A stretch of 27,295 nucleotides of DNA from a virus, in UHGV virus genome UHGV-0068847. One strand, 5' to 3'. Position 1 is the stretch's first letter. Each line of letters opens with the position of its first letter. Below, piece by piece: positions 15,001 to 21,000 of the stretch. Position numbers: made by a program.

Positions 15001-18000
15001 GTTATTTGTCTAATGAAGGTATGAATACTTTTGTGCAATTGTTATTCGTATCCAATCATCAGGATCCTGACGGCACATACCATGGGGTATTTCCAGATAC
15101 CAAGGTTGGTATAAGTATGACTGAATACCTATACCAAAAAACTTGCTCATCATCAGAGAAGGCTAAGTCATTAAAACCAACCTGGTTGCATTGGCGACAA
15201 CAGGAAGCTCTGGAGCTAAAACGAAATCCCTTTGATATTTAAATTTGAGATTTACCAGCCCTGGCATTCGCCGGGGCTTTTTTATTTCAGGCTCACGGGA
15301 ATCATCCACGATACATATTGTTGATAAATCCAGCCCGTGAAGCCTGACCCTTTCATCACACAGCGCCATCCGAATAATCGGAGGTAGGGCTATGACCAGA
15401 ATGAGCACCATTTACAGCAGACTTTCATATGGATCAGGAACCACGCTTGCCGGCTGCGGTGTATCAGCGAAGGCATATGCCGAAACAGCTAAAACAGCAA
15501 AAGAGGTGTCCTGGATGTTGGCCGACAGAATTGCAGGGTTAAGCCTGAGCGACTGGGCAATTATTGTCGGTATCGCATGCACAGTTATCACTTGTGCAGT
15601 GAACTGGTATTTCCGCTGGAAAGAACGGGAGGATCGGCGCAATGGCTATGCCACCAAAGCTGAAGAATAAACTGAGCGCAGCGGTCGTTGGTTTGATTCT
15701 TGCGGGGGCTTCCGCGCCCGTGATTCTCGATCAGTTTCTGGATGAGAAAGAGGGTAACAGCCTGACAGCATATCGCGACGGCGGCGGAATCTGGACTATT
15801 TGCCGTGGCGCCACGATGGTTGATGGTAAGCCAGTAGTTCAGGGCATGAAGCTGTCTGCTGAGAAATGCGCCAAGGTGAACGCCATAGAACGCGACAAGG
15901 CGCTGGCGTGGGTTGAGCGAAATATCAAAGTACCACTGACCGAACCACAGAAAGCGGGTATTGCGTCATTTTGTCCTTACAACATCGGCCCCGGAAAATG
16001 TTTCCCTTCTACGTTCTATAAGCGCATTAACGCTGGTGACCGTAAAGGCGCCTGTGAAGCGATCCGCTGGTGGATTAAAGACGGCGGCCGCGACTGTCGT
16101 CTGACCAAAGGCCAGAAAAATGGGTGCTATGGGCAGGTCGAGCGGCGCGATCAAGAAAGTGCGCTGACGTGCTGGGGGATTGACCGGTGAGTCGACTAAC
16201 AAACATCATCATTACTGTGATCATCTGCATAATCTTATCTCTAGGCTGGGCCGTTAACCACTACCGCGACAACGCGATCACCTACAAAGACCAACGCAAC
16301 AAAGCAACTGAAAAGCTCAGCCTAGCTAACGTTACTATCACCGACATGCAAACCCGCCAGCGCGATGTCGCTGCACTGGATGCCAAATATACGAAGGAGT
16401 TAGCTGATGCGAAAAACACCATTAGCGGTCTACGTGGCGATGTTGAGTCTGGGCGCAAGCAGCTGCGCGTTGCAGCCGCCTGCAATAAAGTGCGTCAAAC
16501 CACCGACACCGCCAGCATGGATGATGCAACCGGCCCCAGACTTACTGACACCGCTCAACGGGATTATTTCACTCTCAGAGAGCGAATAGAAACTGTCACC
16601 AAGCAACTTGCCGGATTACAAGAATATGTCAGTGCGCAGAATTTAAAATGACTTGTCACCTATTTCGCTGTCTGATTAGTTATTCAATATTAGTTGGCAT
16701 AGCGTTAGTAATTAACTGCAATGGCTATGACTGCAATTAATTATGGCATCAGCTTTGCTTGATGAGGATGATGGATATTTTTCGGATAAGAATTTCTGTA
16801 TGTCTTCAACAGCTTCGATGCTGACTCTAATATTTGTATGGCCATTGTTTTTTAAATAATTAACTGCTTCATCTATAAGGTTGTTTTCTGATAGAAATTT
16901 GATAACAATGGCAAAGTTATCAACGCCGGTTTCGGTTAAAAGTTCACAGTTAGGCATGGTTGTTACTCCAGTGATGTAAATGAGATTTTATTTTGGATTG
17001 TTTTTTTATCAGCGTGGGTGATATGTTTGTATGATTTTTGAGGTTGCCTAAACACAAAAGTTGTATTCAAAGTAATCGAGCTAATTAGGGTGGGCCGCTG
17101 GTTTGGTAAGGTCAGGGGATTAACTCTTATTCTATTACCTTTCTGCGTTGCCATAACCATGGGCAGACCCATCGTAATGGTAGTTTTTGAATAGGCCGCT
17201 AATGAATTCATGGCGCATGGTTTTGGGAGGCGATTTGCAAGCAGGCATCTCGGACTTGTATCGCAAGACGAAGCCCTTCCTGAAATCTTGCTGATGCGTT
17301 GGGATCGTTTGCTGAATTTAGATAGACATTAAAAAGCTGCATGATGGTAACGCTATATGCTTGCTTAATAGCATTTTCAGTAATTGTTTCGTCCATCGAG
17401 AATCTCCTCGGTAGCATAGATGACAGGTTTACTTCCGTCTTACCATAGGTCATCAATGGGATTACTTTAATAGGAAAGAAGCATGAGCAAGCCGGACTGG
17501 GAGGTCATCGGGGCGGCGTACTGTGCCGGAGTGATGGCCCTCCGTGAAATTACATCGCAGCACGACATTAGTGAAGGGACAATGCAGAACCATACTAACT
17601 ACTGAGTGAGTGAAACAGACAATATCATCGGTAAGGATGATGGCAATAGCCCCCGACTTACTGACGCCGCTAAACGGGATTATTTCACCCTCAGAGAGCG
17701 AATCAGCACCATCACCGGGCAAGTGAGTTACTTACAGGATTACATCAGGCAGCAATGTTTGAAGTGAATGGCCGCTAGACTTAGCCAGCCATTTTAAAGA
17801 GTTAACCAACGGTTAATGTGGAAAGCAAATGCGAAGTTTCCCCAGAGCAGTTAACAGTGGTTTCGTTGTAAGGGAATTCACCCGTATACTCGCTATTTGC
17901 AGGGGGAGTCATTTTGTTAATCAATGCAGCTTCTGCGCGCACCCGATCATCTTTTCCAGTAATAGTAGCGACGGAATAGCAGAGAGTCTCACCGACCATT

Positions 18001-21000
18001 AAATGTTCATTCCAGTCACCCAGCCTGTCGTGCGTGGCCACACGGGATCGGACGTTCGATGATTCGCCGATATAAATCAACTTACGAATTTCGAGTGTTG
18101 TCTTGGAGCCATTAGTAACAGCTTTGCATGCGTATACGCAGTAGATTCCTGACTGATCTGGAACGCCACTCTTATTGGCTTCACGCCAATACCCATCAAA
18201 TTGCAGATTAATTGTTTTACCAGTCATTTATAGCTTCTCCTAATTACGCCAACAATAGCGCAATAGGGAAGTGGGGAGATAAATCCAAGTTACAATGAGC
18301 AATCAGTATTTCAATGACTTATGTCATGATTTTCTTATTAATTATAGAAAATATGGGGTTTTTCCATGATGACTGCCATCGTGATAGCAGGTCGCTCAGC
18401 CATTGAACGGTAGGTTGTTTGTTACACAGGCTGCCATTACAGAGGCATTCACTGAGCGCCTGAGATAATGCACAATAACTCCCCCTGTACTGAAGGAAAT
18501 GTGGAAGAGAAAAATTCCATAGGGAGCAGACTAATCTGTAGGGATTGTCTCGATATCATTAGCGCGGTCATCCGGAAAGAATGGTTGATATGTACTGATT
18601 AGTCAAAATCATGCAGAATAGTCACAGTATAAATATGCGAGGCTATCATGAATTATATTTACCAATTAGTGATCTCTGTAGTAGCGGGTGGACTTGGTGC
18701 ATGGATTGCAATGTTATTTGCTTTAAAACGTTTTTATAGTGAAAAGTGGTGGGAGAAGAGAGCAGGGGCCCTTATTGAATTAACTAATGCAATTTATCAG
18801 GTAAAGGTTCTACAAGATTATTATTCTGATTTGAAAGAGTATCAACGATTAGGTCCAGATGAATATCCAAACTTTATCAAATTGAGTGCTGAGAAACTTA
18901 GTAAATTACAAATCTCAGCTGCTGAGGCAAAAGATTTAATAGTAAAATATAGCAATATCGGCCCCTTGCTGGTTACTGAATCAGTATCAAAACTTCTAAC
19001 TGATTATTTGAAACGAGAAGATAAGGTTGACTATGAAGTTAATTTTCAGGGGTTAGATACAGATGATGCTGAAGAACATCTCTTATCGTTGACAAATAAA
19101 CTTCTGGAAGATTTAGTTAAAGAATCAAAAAGCGTTCTTAAAGCAAAGTAATCTAGAAGAAAACCTAAGGGCACTAAATGTGATGTGCCCATTTAATTGT
19201 GCATACGCTAAGAGAATCATTATAGGGATAGCTTATAAATCGAATTGTGAAATTGATATTTATTATCGTTTGCGGGTCCTTTCCAGCGATCCGCTCCGTT
19301 ACGGGGCGGCGACCGCGCAGATTCTCGCTATTTATGAAAATTTTCAGGCATTTGCCGTTTCCGTTCTTCTTCTCGCTAATTCATTGTTTTAACTGTAAAC
19401 ACCCCCTGAAAAGAAAGGAAATGATAAGCCTTAAAAACGGCTAAATAGCCAGAGGGCGTTTCCTTTCTCTGTTTTTGTGCATGGAGTGAGCTATGGAGGT
19501 CAACAAAAAGCGTCTTTCTGAAATATTTGGGGTCAGCGTGCGAACCATTCAGAACTGGCAGGATCAGGGAATGCCTGTAGCACGTGGCGGCGGAAAAGGT
19601 AATGAGGTCCTCTATGAATCTTCCGCGGCTATTGAATGGTATTCCGCACGCGACGCGGCGATTGAGAATGAGAAATTACGGAAGGAGGTGGAAGACCTTC
19701 GTCTTGCATCGGAATCCGACCTTCAGCCTGGTACGATTGACTATGAGCGTCATCGCCTCACCCGGGCACAGGCTGACGCCCAGGAACTAAAAAATGCAAA
19801 AGATTCCGCTGAGGTGGTGGAAACCGCATTCTGCACGTTCGTGCTGTCGCGGATGGCCGGAGAAGTAGCCAGCATTCTTGATGGAGTTGCTCTGTCTGTT
19901 CAGCGGCGCTTCCCGGAGCTGGAAAACCGACATATTGATTTCCTCAAGAAGGACATCATTAAAGCCATGAACAAAGCAGCTGCGCTGGATGAAATAATAC
20001 CGGGGTTGCTGAGTGAATATATCGAACAGTCAGGTTAAGGGGCTGCAGCACTCTGCGCGCGCGGGTCTACTTTCGCTGTACCGACCTGAGCCGCAAACGG
20101 CGGTTGAATGGGCAGACGATAATTACTATCTCCCCAAAGAGTCGGCCTACCAGGAAGGGCGCTGGGAAACATTGCCATTTCAGCGCGCGATCATGAATGC
20201 GATGGGTAACGACTACATTCGTGAAGTTAACGTTGTTAAGTCTGCCCGTGTTGGCTATTCAAAAATGTTGCTGGGTGTTTATGCGTATTTTATACAGCAC
20301 AAGCAGCGAAATTCCCTTATCTGGCTGCCCACGGATGGTGACGCCGAAAACTTCATGAAGTCGCATGTTGAACCCACGATCCGTGATATTCCGTCACTTC
20401 TGGCGCTGGCCCCCTGGTATGGCAAAAAGCACCGGGACAATACGCTCAGTATGAAACGCTTCTCCAACGGTCGCGGGTTCTGGTGTCTGGGGGGTAAGGC
20501 GGCGAAAAACTATCGCGAAAAGTCAGTGGATGTTGCCGGCTATGACGAACTCGCTGCTTTTGATGAGGATATTGAGAAAGAGGGTTCCCCGACGTTTCTG
20601 GGTGATAAACGTATTGAGGGCTCTGTCTGGCCTAAATCTATTCGTGGCTCAACGCCAAAAACAAAGGGGACCTGCCAGATTGAGCGTGCTGCCAGCGAGT
20701 CCGGGCATTTCATGCGCTTTCATGTTGCCTGTCCGCACTGTGGTGAAGAGCAGTACCTTAAGTTCGGCGACAAAGAAACCCCGTTCGGGTTCAAATGGAC
20801 ACCGGGCGAACCCTCCAGCGTCTTTTACCTGTGTGAACATAATGCCTGCGTCATTAAGCAGCAGGAGCTGGATTTCACTGAAGCTCGTTACATCTGCGAC
20901 ACCACCGGGATCTGGACGCGCGATGGTTTATCCTGGTTTTCATCAACAGGCACAGAAATCGACCCGCCGGACAGCGTGACGTTTCACATCTGGACGGCAT

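What the first reader, a model, noticed from the sequence alone, without database searches (positions are those of the whole stretch)
17802..18227. Stand-alone GIY-YIG-like nuclease gene in the cargo island, oriented against phage late transcription
The 141-aa product shows GIY...(24 aa)...YIG, the conserved Arg (NVRSRVATH), and the C-terminal E-x-x-LI-x-K-x-x-P-x-N signature (RVRAEAALINKMTPPANSEY). It has a very strong SD (AGGAGAAG) and lies on the minus strand.

It is too short to carry a homing-endonuclease DNA-binding domain, so it is not an obvious mobile intron or homing element. A lysogen-expressed compact nuclease in a moron slot is a plausible abortive-infection, exclusion or anti-plasmid effector, or an orphan toxin.
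Basis: partly seen in the sequence, partly recalled or inferred. Interest (0 to 1): 0.6.

Follow-up and report, generated by a model that had tools for sequence, protein, structure and literature searches.

The report
Compact stand-alone GIY-YIG nuclease prophage cargo gene
This is a real, intact gene for a very small DNA-cutting enzyme of the GIY-YIG type that a Citrobacter-type lambda-like prophage carries as optional cargo; its function is untested, but relatives in other bacteria sit behind DNA-damage-sensing switches that usually control anti-phage immune genes.

Summary
The ORF at 17802-18227 (-) is real: 141 aa with a strong SD. It is a full-length member of a conserved ~140-aa family (727 clusters at E<=1e-10, more than 15 phyla), so it is not a fragment.

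It lies in a low-GC island between Rz and nu1, antisense to the late genes. Relatives occupy the same slot in three other enterobacterial prophage types and a comparable antisense slot in a P2-like phage.

No partner gene is conserved. In 13 of 74 species-level loci, an IrrE/M78 peptidase gene (mostly with an XRE HTH gene) lies upstream on the opposite strand. This is the CapH/CapP layout. Cargo such as DUF2188 or ubiquitin-like E1 genes is sometimes co-operonic.

Best reading: a self-sufficient conflict or defence nuclease, gated by expression. Function is untested, a DNA-damage-repair role is a real rival, and homing endonuclease is rejected.

NCBI already labels the protein "GIY-YIG nuclease family protein". 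Interest is moderate.

The parts
17802..18227 (-). CDS of the 141-aa stand-alone GIY-YIG nuclease. Predicted catalytic residues: Y29, Y52, R62, H66, E99, N111.
18234..18241 (-). Shine-Dalgarno sequence AGGAGAAG. The AGGAG core ends 9 nt upstream of the ATG.
   Evidence: Read directly from the sequence.
18243..18264 (-). 5'-UTR stem-loop immediately upstream of the SD, conserved among enterobacterial homologues. In this window an extended stem also pairs with the first bases of the SD.
   Evidence: RNAalifold on 8 loci gives 9 pairs, 6 with compensatory changes. The single-sequence fold is -14.4 kcal/mol, z=-4.6.
18228..18647 (-). 420-bp AT-rich intergenic region upstream of the gene. It is presumed to hold the gene's own promoter, which has not been located. 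Homology with the Pectobacterium cassettes extends to 18320, with a further short block at 18435-18469.
   Evidence: ORF map, GC profile, blastn against L020/L035. The consensus scan found no strong minus-strand sigma-70 site here.
17767..17793 (.). Hairpin between the stop codons of the GIY-YIG gene and the convergent Rz' remnant. It is terminator-like but has no T-run.
   Evidence: Fold of -12.4 kcal/mol, z=-3.2. The terminator scan did not call it.
17606..17767 (+). Rz' remnant: the C-terminal 51 aa of a second, different Rz. It marks the left edge of the imported cassette as a recombination scar.
   Evidence: PF03245 E=1.6e-14. 55% identity to the resident Rz C-terminus. A similar remnant lies downstream of the Klebsiella homologue.

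Best explanation
The gene encodes an intact, catalytically competent-looking, single-domain GIY-YIG endonuclease. It belongs to an uncharacterised family of ~140-aa proteins that is sporadically distributed and moves horizontally.

In this prophage it is a self-contained accessory ('moron') cassette. It has its own SD and 5'-UTR hairpin, is low in GC, and arrived with an Rz' recombination scar. It sits in the bor-like slot between Rz and cos/nu1 and is transcribed against the late operon.

Inferred mechanism: the protein, probably as an oligomer like other minimal GIY-YIG enzymes, nicks or cleaves DNA using the Tyr/Tyr/Arg/His/Glu/Asn one-metal site. It has no sensor domain. Harm to self would therefore be limited mainly by when and how much of it is made.
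- In chromosomal relatives, a divergent CapH/CapP-type repressor/peptidase pair would provide this control. That pair fires on DNA damage or ssDNA.
- In prophages, an own weak promoter would provide it, with possible silencing by opposing late transcription.

The most likely biological role is a conflict or defence effector: exclusion or abortive killing on infection by other phages or mobile DNA.

Shown: the gene, the fold, the conserved active site, the family, the cargo position and the regulator association in relatives. Inferred: nuclease activity, substrate, oligomeric state, expression in the lysogen and the defence role.
For: Gene and family:
- 207 homologues; the identical protein occurs only in this prophage type.
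- 1092 representative clusters at E<=1e-3 and 727 at E<=1e-10, nearly all 135-160 aa.
- 74 loci in GTDB species representatives across more than 15 phyla, including Thermoplasmata.

Fold and active site:
- 29/30 members hit PF01541.
- pLDDT 95.
- Invariant Y29, Y52, G54, R62, H66, N111; E99 in at least 90%.
- R62 aligns with EndoII R57.
- The E99-x8-PP-x-N111 spacing is identical to EndoII E118...N130 (sequence).

Cargo status:
- GC dip and Rz' scar.
- The same lysis-to-terminase, antisense position in Klebsiella, Enterobacter and Serratia prophages with different terminases.
- Antisense between gpS and gpV in the P2-like phage RsoM1USA.
- Rare in phages overall: 1 phage in INPHARED and 5 IMG/VR loci.

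No obligatory partner:
- Neighbour clustering and a small-ORF search found none.
- The 136 nearest neighbours fall in 126 Pfam families.

Conflict context:
- An M78/IrrE peptidase gene is present in 13 of 74 loci. All 13 are upstream and on the opposite strand, 335-2615 bp away.
- Domains confirmed as Peptidase_M78 plus HTH_3.
- The PADLOC capH model hits 4 nearest neighbours, best E=1.8e-25.
- This is the architecture described for CapH/CapP-regulated immune operons, including the sigma-factor variants and the DUF2188 and 6e ubiquitin-like cargo (10.1101/2022.04.27.489752). The same cargo types accompany this nuclease in L037, L071 and L073.
- In L055, L061, L076 and L081 the nuclease appears to be the only cargo.
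- Other neighbours: a Bil operon, AbiJ-NTD3/AAA_15 plus ParE, ThsB-TIR and MADS.
- In Klebsiella and Serratia prophages the adjacent Acb2/Tad1-like genes run with the lytic genes while the nuclease runs against them.
Against: - There are no experimental data for any family member, and four literature searches found none.
- The window itself has no capH/capP or DUF2188, no LexA box near the gene and no convincing promoter call. Its regulation here is unknown.
- No PADLOC defence model matches beyond a local 30-residue hit to candidate PDC-S14.
- The family is unusually conserved (45-66% identity across phyla, 23 invariant positions). That is atypical for fast-evolving defence proteins.
- 82% of genome loci lack the regulator. 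Some contexts look unrelated to defence: an O-antigen cluster, a spot next to a plasmid replication gene, and chemotaxis genes on a Vibrio megaplasmid.
- IrrE/DdrO-type regulators also control genuine DNA-repair regulons and MGE induction, so the association is not specific to immunity.
- 7 of the 13 regulator-linked members form one clade, so the events are not all independent.
Confidence: 0.5

Rival explanations
1. DNA-damage-response or repair nuclease. A mobile, Cho/UvrC-N-like incision or processing enzyme would be switched on by DNA damage. Its role would be to help the host or the element survive genotoxic stress, not to attack invaders.
For: - The linked regulators are of the IrrE/DdrO-CapP/CapH type, which respond to DNA damage.
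- Co-operonic genes include YdjM, which I recall as an SOS-regulon protein in E. coli (own knowledge, not tested here), as well as HNH and DUF1883.
- LexA/S24-type genes lie just upstream in the Aeromonas and Ruminococcaceae loci.
- High sequence conservation suits an enzyme acting on a universal substrate.
Against: - There is no UvrB-binding or other recruitment domain in 141 aa.
- Distribution is extremely patchy: 74 of 185,579 species representatives matched the scan patterns, and none of 5,426 complete E. coli genomes has it.
- It lives almost exclusively on prophages, satellite-like islands, plasmids and variable islands.
- Lau et al. describe the cargo of CapH/CapP-like regulators as mostly known or putative defence systems.
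Confidence: 0.2
2. Toxin or addiction module, or anti-plasmid nuclease. The nuclease would stabilise the element that carries it or destroy competing replicons, held in check by an unrecognised small protein or RNA antidote.
For: - It is a stand-alone small nuclease on prophages, plasmids (Synechococcus 44.7-kb plasmid, next to the replication gene) and islands containing ParE/RelB.
- It is flanked by non-coding DNA on both sides.
- A conserved 5'-UTR hairpin could be a regulatory RNA target.
- Tight repression in CapH/CapP loci suggests that expression is costly.
Against: - No conserved adjacent ORF of 25 aa or more in 80-odd loci.
- No Rfam hit and no repeats in the flanks.
- The UTR hairpin is conserved only among enterobacterial copies.
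Confidence: 0.1
3. Free-standing homing-type (selfish) endonuclease. It would spread by cutting cognate sites in genomes that lack it.
For: - The gene sits in intergenic gaps between conserved phage genes: lysis/terminase, and gpS/gpV.
- One copy sits inside an O-antigen cluster.
- Patchy distribution combined with high identity across phyla suggests recent horizontal spread.
Against: - No DNA-binding module at all, and no NUMOD/HTH/Zn-finger hits.
- Flanking genes differ in nearly every context, so no common target is evident.
- It is oriented against the surrounding operon.
- In many loci it is under a dedicated repressor/peptidase pair, which is not a homing-endonuclease feature.
- It is rare in phage collections.
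Confidence: 0.07
4. Lytic-cycle phage nuclease, either EndoII-like (degrading host or competitor DNA) or an anti-defence enzyme. It would be used by the phage during its own replication.
For: - Neighbours in Klebsiella and Serratia prophages are Acb2/Tad1-like anti-defence genes.
Against: - It is transcribed antisense to the late, lysis and anti-defence genes in every prophage examined.
- Most family members are chromosomal and not in phages.
- Profile similarity to EndoII is limited to the 17-column YIG-Arg segment.
Confidence: 0.06

Closest known systems
Bacteriophage T4 endonuclease II (DenA; PDB 2WSH)
   Same: - A stand-alone GIY-YIG enzyme of almost the same size (136 vs 141 aa) with N-terminal and internal elaborations of the core instead of a separate DNA-binding domain.
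- The same Tyr-x10-Arg spacing.
- The same Glu-x3-Ile-x4-Pro-Pro-x-Asn motif.
   Different: - Only 19% identity. hhalign aligns just 17 columns (probability 30%).
- EndoII has a 61-residue Arg-to-Glu segment, against 37 here. This family instead has a long GIY/YIG beta-hairpin (22-residue spacer) and two extra C-terminal strands.
- EndoII is a lytic-phage gene for degrading host DNA (own knowledge, not tested here). This gene is antisense cargo of a temperate phage, and most relatives are chromosomal.
UvrC N-terminal domain / Cho (nucleotide-excision-repair incision nucleases)
   Same: - Weak Cho profile hit.
- Possible DNA-damage-linked expression in relatives.
   Different: - No UvrB-binding, Cys4, EndoV or HhH domains.
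- 141 aa in total.
- Not a housekeeping gene: it is sporadic and carried on MGEs.
Single-gene GIY-YIG anti-phage systems: PD-T4-3 (PDB 9U75), PD-lambda-1/SNIPE, Uzume
   Same: - A GIY-YIG catalytic domain used as a one-gene immune effector.
   Different: - Those proteins are 250-450+ aa and carry sensor or anchor modules. SNIPE has a TM segment plus DUF4041. The PD-T4-3 entry describes a 5hmC-specific enzyme of 248 residues.
- None of their PADLOC models hits this protein.
- This family has the catalytic domain only.
CapH/CapP (IrrE/DdrO-, ImmR/ImmA-like) regulated immune operons
   Same: In 13 homologous loci the nuclease is the cargo, or part of the cargo, of an HTH plus M78-peptidase pair placed upstream on the opposite strand. 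Sigma-factor variants occur, and DUF2188 and 6e ubiquitin-like genes accompany it. This is exactly as described for CapH/CapP systems.
   Different: - This GIY-YIG family is not mentioned among the described cargos (0 occurrences).
- The copy in this window has no such regulator.
GIY-YIG homing endonucleases (I-TevI, T4 Seg proteins)
   Same: - Intergenic, free-standing placement in phage genomes.
   Different: - No linker or DNA-binding domain.
- No common target flanks.
- Antisense orientation.
- Repressor-controlled in many loci.
Lambdoid 'moron' genes in the Rz-cos slot (for example lambda bor)
   Same: - The same genomic slot and the same orientation against late transcription (own knowledge for bor).
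- Compositional anomaly and an independent translation signal.
   Different: - bor is a lipoprotein for serum resistance, whereas this is a nuclease.
- A promoter and terminator have not been demonstrated here.

Membership tests
GIY-YIG nuclease superfamily (Pfam PF01541 and clan) | GIY and YIG motifs with their two tyrosines on a beta-hairpin | tested here: met
   GIY at 27-29 and YIG at 52-54. Y29, Y52 and G54 are invariant in 30 homologues. They lie on strands 27-39 and 42-56 of the model. The spacer is 22 aa, longer than the ~10 aa in EndoII.
GIY-YIG nuclease superfamily (Pfam PF01541 and clan) | Conserved Arg about 10 residues after YIG, then a catalytic Glu and an Asn 12 residues later | tested here: met
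   R62 is invariant (Y52+10) and aligns with EndoII R57. E99 is conserved in at least 90% and N111 is invariant. The E-to-N spacing of 12 matches EndoII E118/N130.
GIY-YIG nuclease superfamily (Pfam PF01541 and clan) | Profile-HMM score above the curated threshold | tested here: inconclusive
   The window protein scores 18.9 bits against a 22.6-bit cut-off, E=0.0019. 29 of 30 family members hit at E<=0.01, best 1.2e-5.
GIY-YIG nuclease superfamily (Pfam PF01541 and clan) | GIY-YIG alpha/beta fold | tested here: met
   [not shown]
GIY-YIG nuclease superfamily (Pfam PF01541 and clan) | Metal-dependent phosphodiester cleavage | not testable with these tools
   Needs purified protein.
T4 EndoII (DenA) family | Sequence homology beyond the superfamily motifs | tested here: not met
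   hhalign of the family profile against EndoII gives probability 30% over 17 aligned columns. phmmer and hmmsearch against PDB sequences found no GIY-YIG hit.
GIY-YIG homing endonucleases (I-TevI/Seg) | C-terminal DNA-binding modules (NUMOD, HTH, Zn finger) joined by a linker | tested here: not met
   141 aa forming a single compact domain. No such Pfam hits. Family lengths are 135-160 aa.
GIY-YIG homing endonucleases (I-TevI/Seg) | Insertion at or next to a conserved cognate target gene | tested here: not met
   The flanks differ between contexts. The 136 nearest neighbours fall in 126 Pfam families.
Known GIY-YIG defence systems (PD-T4-3, PD-lambda-1/SNIPE, Uzume) | Match to the system's protein model and presence of its accessory domains | tested here: not met
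   PADLOC gives only a local hit to candidate PDC-S14 (E=1.3e-4, residues 42-78). There is no TM, DUF4041 or sensor domain.
UvrC / Cho excinucleases | UvrB-binding and C-terminal domains; equivalog-level profile score | tested here: not met
   The Cho model scores 17.4 bits against a cut-off of 367. The protein ends at residue 141.
CapH/CapP-regulated operon (as cargo) | XRE-HTH plus M78/IrrE peptidase genes upstream, on the opposite strand | tested here: not met
   Not met for this window: local HMMs find no M78 or DUF2188 gene. Met for 13 of 74 homologous loci.
Prophage moron (lysogenic-conversion cassette) | Non-essential insert between modules, deviant composition, own expression signals, present or absent among related phages | tested here: inconclusive
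   Position, antisense orientation, GC dip and recombination scar are met. The SD is present. A promoter or terminator was not detected by consensus scan. Expression in the lysogen is not testable here.

The most novel reading that the evidence does not exclude
The family is a minimal, sensor-less immune nuclease: a bare GIY-YIG catalytic domain with no recognition module. Discrimination between 'safe' and 'infected' would be delegated entirely to transcription.
- In chromosomes, this would be done by CapH/CapP-type ssDNA/DNA-damage-triggered derepression, sometimes together with DUF2188 or ubiquitin-like (Bil/6e) modules.
- In prophages, it would be done by placing the gene antisense inside the late operon, so that the phage's own lytic programme silences it.

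If true, it would be the smallest CapH/CapP-controlled defence system. It would also be a clean model for expression-gated abortive infection.
Probability: 0.2. Interest if true: 0.6.

Novelty: new member of a known kind. Interest (0 to 1): 0.4.

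Why it matters
On its own the finding is modest. It is one more accessory nuclease in a well-known prophage cargo slot, and it already carries a generic GIY-YIG label in NCBI.

What the follow-up adds is a defined, testable family:
- About 140 aa, with roughly 730 clusters at 50% identity, spread over many phyla.
- No dedicated Pfam, NCBIfam or PADLOC model, and no characterised member.
- A very confident predicted structure.
- A fully conserved active site.
- A repeated, orientation-consistent link to CapH/CapP-type DNA-damage switches and their typical cargo (DUF2188, ubiquitin-like systems).

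If the family is a defence effector, it would show how little protein is needed for immunity when regulation does the sensing. It would also add a candidate to defence-finder catalogues. If instead it is a damage-response nuclease, it would be a mobile, SOS-like repair accessory carried by phages. Either outcome can be reached with simple cloning, plaque and nuclease assays.

Tried and rejected
- **Conserved partner gene.** The 167-aa membrane protein divergent from the gene (18648-19151) is not homologous to the similarly placed 166/188-aa Klebsiella neighbour. All-vs-all clustering of 838 neighbours in 68 loci found no universal partner. A search of flanking ORFs of 25 aa or more found only DUF2188, in 6 loci.
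- **RNA partner or repeats.** No Rfam match in 16600-19500 at E<=1. No meaningful direct or inverted repeats flank the gene.
- **LexA control.** No CTGT-N8-ACAG site near the gene, and the window-wide count equals chance.
- **Promoter and terminator.** The consensus scan gave nothing convincing for the minus strand between 18228 and 18647, and counts were at shuffle level.
- **Sequence-level link to solved structures.** phmmer and a profile search of PDB sequences gave only chance hits. Only the fold search worked.
- **Foldseek against AFDB50.** The library was unavailable. BFVD gave only weak hits to phage endonucleases.
- **EndoII family membership.** Rejected by hhalign.
- **Fusion partners as functional clues.** Rare long forms carry TPR or pentapeptide repeats, and most have no Pfam domain. 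There are too few, and they may be gene-calling artefacts.
- **Presence in E. coli.** None in 5,426 complete genomes by blastn.
- **Literature.** Four searches found no paper on this family. The END-nuclease paper is unrelated, as those are PLD enzymes.
- **Pseudogene or fragment hypothesis.** Rejected by the family length distribution.

Full report
**1. The observation**

AGGAGAAG lies at 18241-18234, and the AGGAG core ends 9 nt before the ATG.

GIY is at residues 27-29, YIG at 52-54, NVRSRVATH at 58-66 and RVRAEAALINKMTPPANSEY at 95-114. Two details need correcting. The GIY-YIG spacer is 22 residues, not 24. The C-terminal motif has two prolines: E-x2-LI-x-K-x2-PP-x-N.

The window is a lambda-like prophage. 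It has a holin, lysozyme and Rz at 15392-16651 (+), then Nu1 at 19493 and the large terminase at 20013 (+). The gene lies between these modules in a stretch of 33-47% GC, against 51-54% GC on either side, and it points against them. The description 'cargo island, antisense to late transcription' is therefore correct.

**2. Is it a GIY-YIG protein?**

On its own sequence the evidence is marginal:
- PF01541 scores 18.9 bits, below the 22.6-bit threshold (E=0.0019).
- The Cho model gives E=0.002.
- A PHROG 'endonuclease' family gives E=0.004.
- PADLOC gives a local hit to candidate PDC-S14, E=1.3e-4.

The family settles the question. A search of 5.8 billion proteins returned 207 homologues. The identical sequence is named 'GIY-YIG nuclease family protein [Citrobacter braakii]', and the other relatives (45-66% identity) are almost all 135-145 aa. 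Of 30 aligned members, 29 hit PF01541 at E<=0.01.

The alignment has 23 invariant positions, including Y29, Y52, G54, R62, H66, P108, P109 and N111. E99 is conserved in at least 90%.

R62 aligns with EndoII R57. The segment E99-x3-I-x4-P-P-x-N111 has the same spacing as EndoII E118...N130. The EndoII sequence was verified against PDB 2WSH, whose single difference is the E118A mutation.

Relative to the minimal fold, the model adds an N-terminal strand (4-15), an unusually long GIY/YIG hairpin (27-39 and 42-56) and two C-terminal strands (123-129 and 137-140). There is no separate DNA-binding domain.

**3. Is it a fragment?**

No. A profile search of 1.84 billion cluster representatives found 1092 relatives at E<=1e-3 and 727 at E<=1e-10. 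Nearly all are 135-160 aa and match end to end. A few longer forms carry TPR or pentapeptide repeats or nothing recognisable.

**4. Where the family lives**

The exact protein occurs only in this prophage type, always between the lysis genes and nu1. Relatives occupy the same lysis-to-terminase, antisense position in three other prophage lineages with different packaging and lysis genes:
- Klebsiella, with Terminase_2/6N and next to an Acb2/Tad1-hairpin gene
- Enterobacter, next to ParB_N and TAGT genes
- Serratia, with Nu1/GpA and again next to an Acb2/Tad1-like gene

In the P2-like Ralstonia phage RsoM1USA the homologue (44% identity) is antisense between the tail genes gpS and gpV.

The family is nevertheless rare in phages. 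It appears in one phage in INPHARED (two records of it) and in 5 loci in IMG/VR. It is absent from 5,426 complete E. coli genomes.

A scan of one genome per GTDB species found 74 loci in more than 15 phyla. These include Acidobacteriota, Planctomycetota, Bacteroidota, Spirochaetota, Nitrospirota, Chloroflexota, Actinomycetota, Thermotogota, Bacillota and two Thermoplasmata archaea.

Other contexts:
- A Pectobacterium island with AbiJ-NTD3/AAA_15 and ParE, and a DUF927 satellite-like element
- An Aeromonas P2-like prophage
- A Ruminococcaceae element, next to a serine recombinase
- A spirochaete O-antigen cluster, between the flippase and polymerase genes
- A Synechococcus plasmid, next to its replication gene
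- A position directly after a BilABCD operon

**5. Partners**

None is universal.
- The 167-aa membrane protein divergent from the gene in this window is unrelated to the similarly placed Klebsiella protein.
- Clustering 838 neighbours from 68 non-redundant loci gave no family present in more than 10 loci.
- The 136 nearest neighbours fall in 126 Pfam families.
- A search for flanking ORFs of 25 aa or more found no common small protein.
- No Rfam family and no flanking repeats were found.

**6. The one strong association**

The largest neighbour cluster is an HExxH protein, which Pfam identifies as Peptidase_M78 (IrrE N-terminal-like). The second is an XRE-type HTH_3 protein.

A local HMM finds the peptidase gene in 13 of the 74 genome loci. 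In all 13 it is upstream of the nuclease gene and on the opposite strand, 335-2615 bp away. By my own calculation, if side and strand were random this would have probability (1/4)^13. That overstates the case, because 7 of the 13 nucleases form one clade while the other 6 are scattered.

PADLOC's capH model hits four of the immediate neighbours, with a best E-value of 1.8e-25. This is the layout Lau et al. describe for CapH/CapP. The repressor and its DNA-damage-activated peptidase sit upstream of, and opposite to, the immune operon they control. Variants carry a sigma factor, and the listed cargo includes DUF2188 proteins and 6e ubiquitin-like systems (10.1101/2022.04.27.489752).

The same features recur around this nuclease:
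- A peptidase plus a ~140-aa protein plus a sigma-like protein in L048, L055, L081 and L085. The sigma assignment is by eye only, since Pfam found nothing.
- Multi_ubiq plus DUF6791-ThiF directly downstream in L037.
- A ThiF E1 gene directly upstream in L073.
- DUF2188 plus YdjM in L071, and HNH plus DUF1883 in L085.
- DUF2188 in six loci, five of them adjacent and on the same strand.

In L055, L061, L076 and L081 the nuclease appears to be the regulator's only cargo. The window has neither the regulator nor DUF2188.

**7. Anatomy of the cassette in this window**

Just downstream of the gene, and convergent with it, is a 53-codon remnant of a second Rz (17606-17767). It scores PF03245 E=1.6e-14 and is 55% identical to the resident Rz C-terminus. 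The Klebsiella locus has a similar remnant. The nuclease therefore arrived by recombination with another lambdoid phage through Rz homology.

A hairpin (17767-17793; -12.4 kcal/mol, z=-3.2) separates the two stop codons.

Upstream, a stem-loop at 18243-18264 abuts the SD. It is conserved in eight enterobacterial loci, and 6 of its 9 pairs show compensatory changes. In this window an extended stem also covers the first SD bases (-14.4 kcal/mol, z=-4.6).

No promoter, terminator or LexA box was detected by consensus scans.

**8. Interpretation**

What is shown: an intact gene, a GIY-YIG fold with a complete and conserved active site, a discrete ~140-aa family, mobile-cargo status, no obligatory partner, and a recurrent CapH/CapP-type regulator in relatives.

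What is inferred: that it cuts DNA, what it cuts, that it oligomerises, that it is expressed in the lysogen, and its biological role.

I favour a conflict or defence effector whose danger to self is managed by expression, because it has no sensor domain. The reasons are:
- It sits on mobile elements and in variable islands.
- It neighbours Bil, ThsB-TIR, MADS and AbiJ-type genes.
- Its regulator architecture is the one described mostly for known or putative defence systems.
- In prophages it runs opposite to the lytic and anti-defence genes.

The main rival is a mobile DNA-damage-response nuclease. The closest structures are UvrC and Cho. IrrE/DdrO-type switches also drive repair regulons. The co-cargo YdjM is, from my own knowledge and untested here, an SOS protein in E. 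coli. The family's unusually high conservation also fits an enzyme acting on a universal substrate.

A homing endonuclease is unlikely, because there is no DNA-binding module, no common target flanks, antisense orientation and repressor control. An EndoII-like lytic function is unlikely, because of the orientation and because most relatives are not in phages. A toxin with an unseen antidote cannot be excluded.

**9. Novelty and score**

The protein is already labelled 'GIY-YIG nuclease family protein' in NCBI. A nuclease in this prophage slot will not surprise a specialist. It is a new, uncharacterised member family of a known kind. It matches none of the characterised GIY-YIG families tested here: UvrC/Cho, EndoII, homing enzymes, PD-T4-3, SNIPE/PD-lambda-1 and Uzume. 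Four searches found no literature on it.

The added value is the CapH/CapP, DUF2188 and ubiquitin-like link, which makes the family a concrete candidate for a minimal, expression-gated immune nuclease. Interest: 0.4.

Noticed in passing
window 17606-17767 (+): A 53-codon remnant of a second Rz gene (PF03245), 55% identical to the C-terminus of the resident Rz at 16187-16651. It lies right behind the nuclease gene. The Klebsiella prophage homologue has a similar remnant (L009 6485-6548). It looks like the scar of cassette exchange between lambdoid phages through Rz homology.
   Followed up: partly
window 18243-18264 (-); the same position in L009, L017, L020, L025, L034, L035, L108: A stem-loop immediately 5' of the Shine-Dalgarno sequence, conserved in structure: 6 of 9 pairs have compensatory changes. 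In the window an extended stem also occludes the first SD bases. It may be an mRNA-stabilising or translation-control element.
   Followed up: partly
window 18648-19151 (+): A 167-aa protein with an N-terminal hydrophobic segment, in very AT-rich DNA (33-35% GC), divergent from the nuclease gene. It has no Pfam hit and matches only phrog_17948 (unknown function, E=6.7e-21). It is not found next to other family members.
   Followed up: partly
window 16712-17456 (-): Three consecutive small ORFs (81, 82 and 82 aa) on the minus strand, between the end of Rz and the Rz' remnant, in low-GC DNA. They have no significant family hits and form a separate piece of the cargo island.
   Followed up: no
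window 9183-11946 (+): Two overlapping ORFs of 293 and 629 aa. They match in size and order the Dam-like (PF05869) and C5 DNA-methylase (PF00145) genes annotated in the near-identical prophage L004. The phage probably methylates its own DNA. Any relation to the nuclease was not examined.
   Followed up: no
L009 6866-7150 (-); L025 6455-6736 (-): In the Klebsiella and Serratia prophages the nuclease homologue sits next to an Acb2/Tad1-hairpin (anti-CBASS/anti-Thoeris type) gene. That gene runs with the lytic genes, so the slot collects cargo of opposite polarity: anti-defence genes and possible defence genes.
   Followed up: no
L048 7874-9883; L055 5719-7723; L081 7871-9622; L085 191-1966 (all minus strand): A three-gene regulator variant upstream of the nuclease: an M78 peptidase, a ~110-150-aa protein and a ~200-275-aa protein. 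The C-terminus of the last looks like sigma-70 region 4 by eye, although Pfam gives no hit. It possibly corresponds to the CapH/CapP-plus-sigma-factor variant mentioned by Lau et al.
   Followed up: partly
L036 1997-2221; L070 1436-1672; L071 1767-1994; L077 9342-9626; L088 10460-10699; L061 7358-7621: DUF2188 genes (74-94 aa) recur beside the nuclease gene. Five of the six are adjacent and on the same strand, which suggests a DUF2188 plus GIY-YIG two-gene variant.
   Followed up: partly
L028 3050-6426; L037 10001-12163; L073 8429-10414: Three independent loci place the nuclease in the same operon as ubiquitin-like conjugation genes: BilA-D, Multi_ubiq plus DUF6791-ThiF, and a ThiF E1 protein. 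It could be an accessory effector of such systems.
   Followed up: partly
L089 4760-10432 (+): In a high-GC alphaproteobacterial MAG, the homologue lies at the end of a 1890-codon open frame. This may be a chance long ORF or a real fusion.
   Followed up: no
P0145 (470 aa), P0252 (521 aa): Rare long family members fuse the nuclease domain to TPR repeats (C-terminal) or to pentapeptide repeats (N-terminal). They may be sensor or DNA-mimic modules, or gene-calling artefacts.
   Followed up: partly
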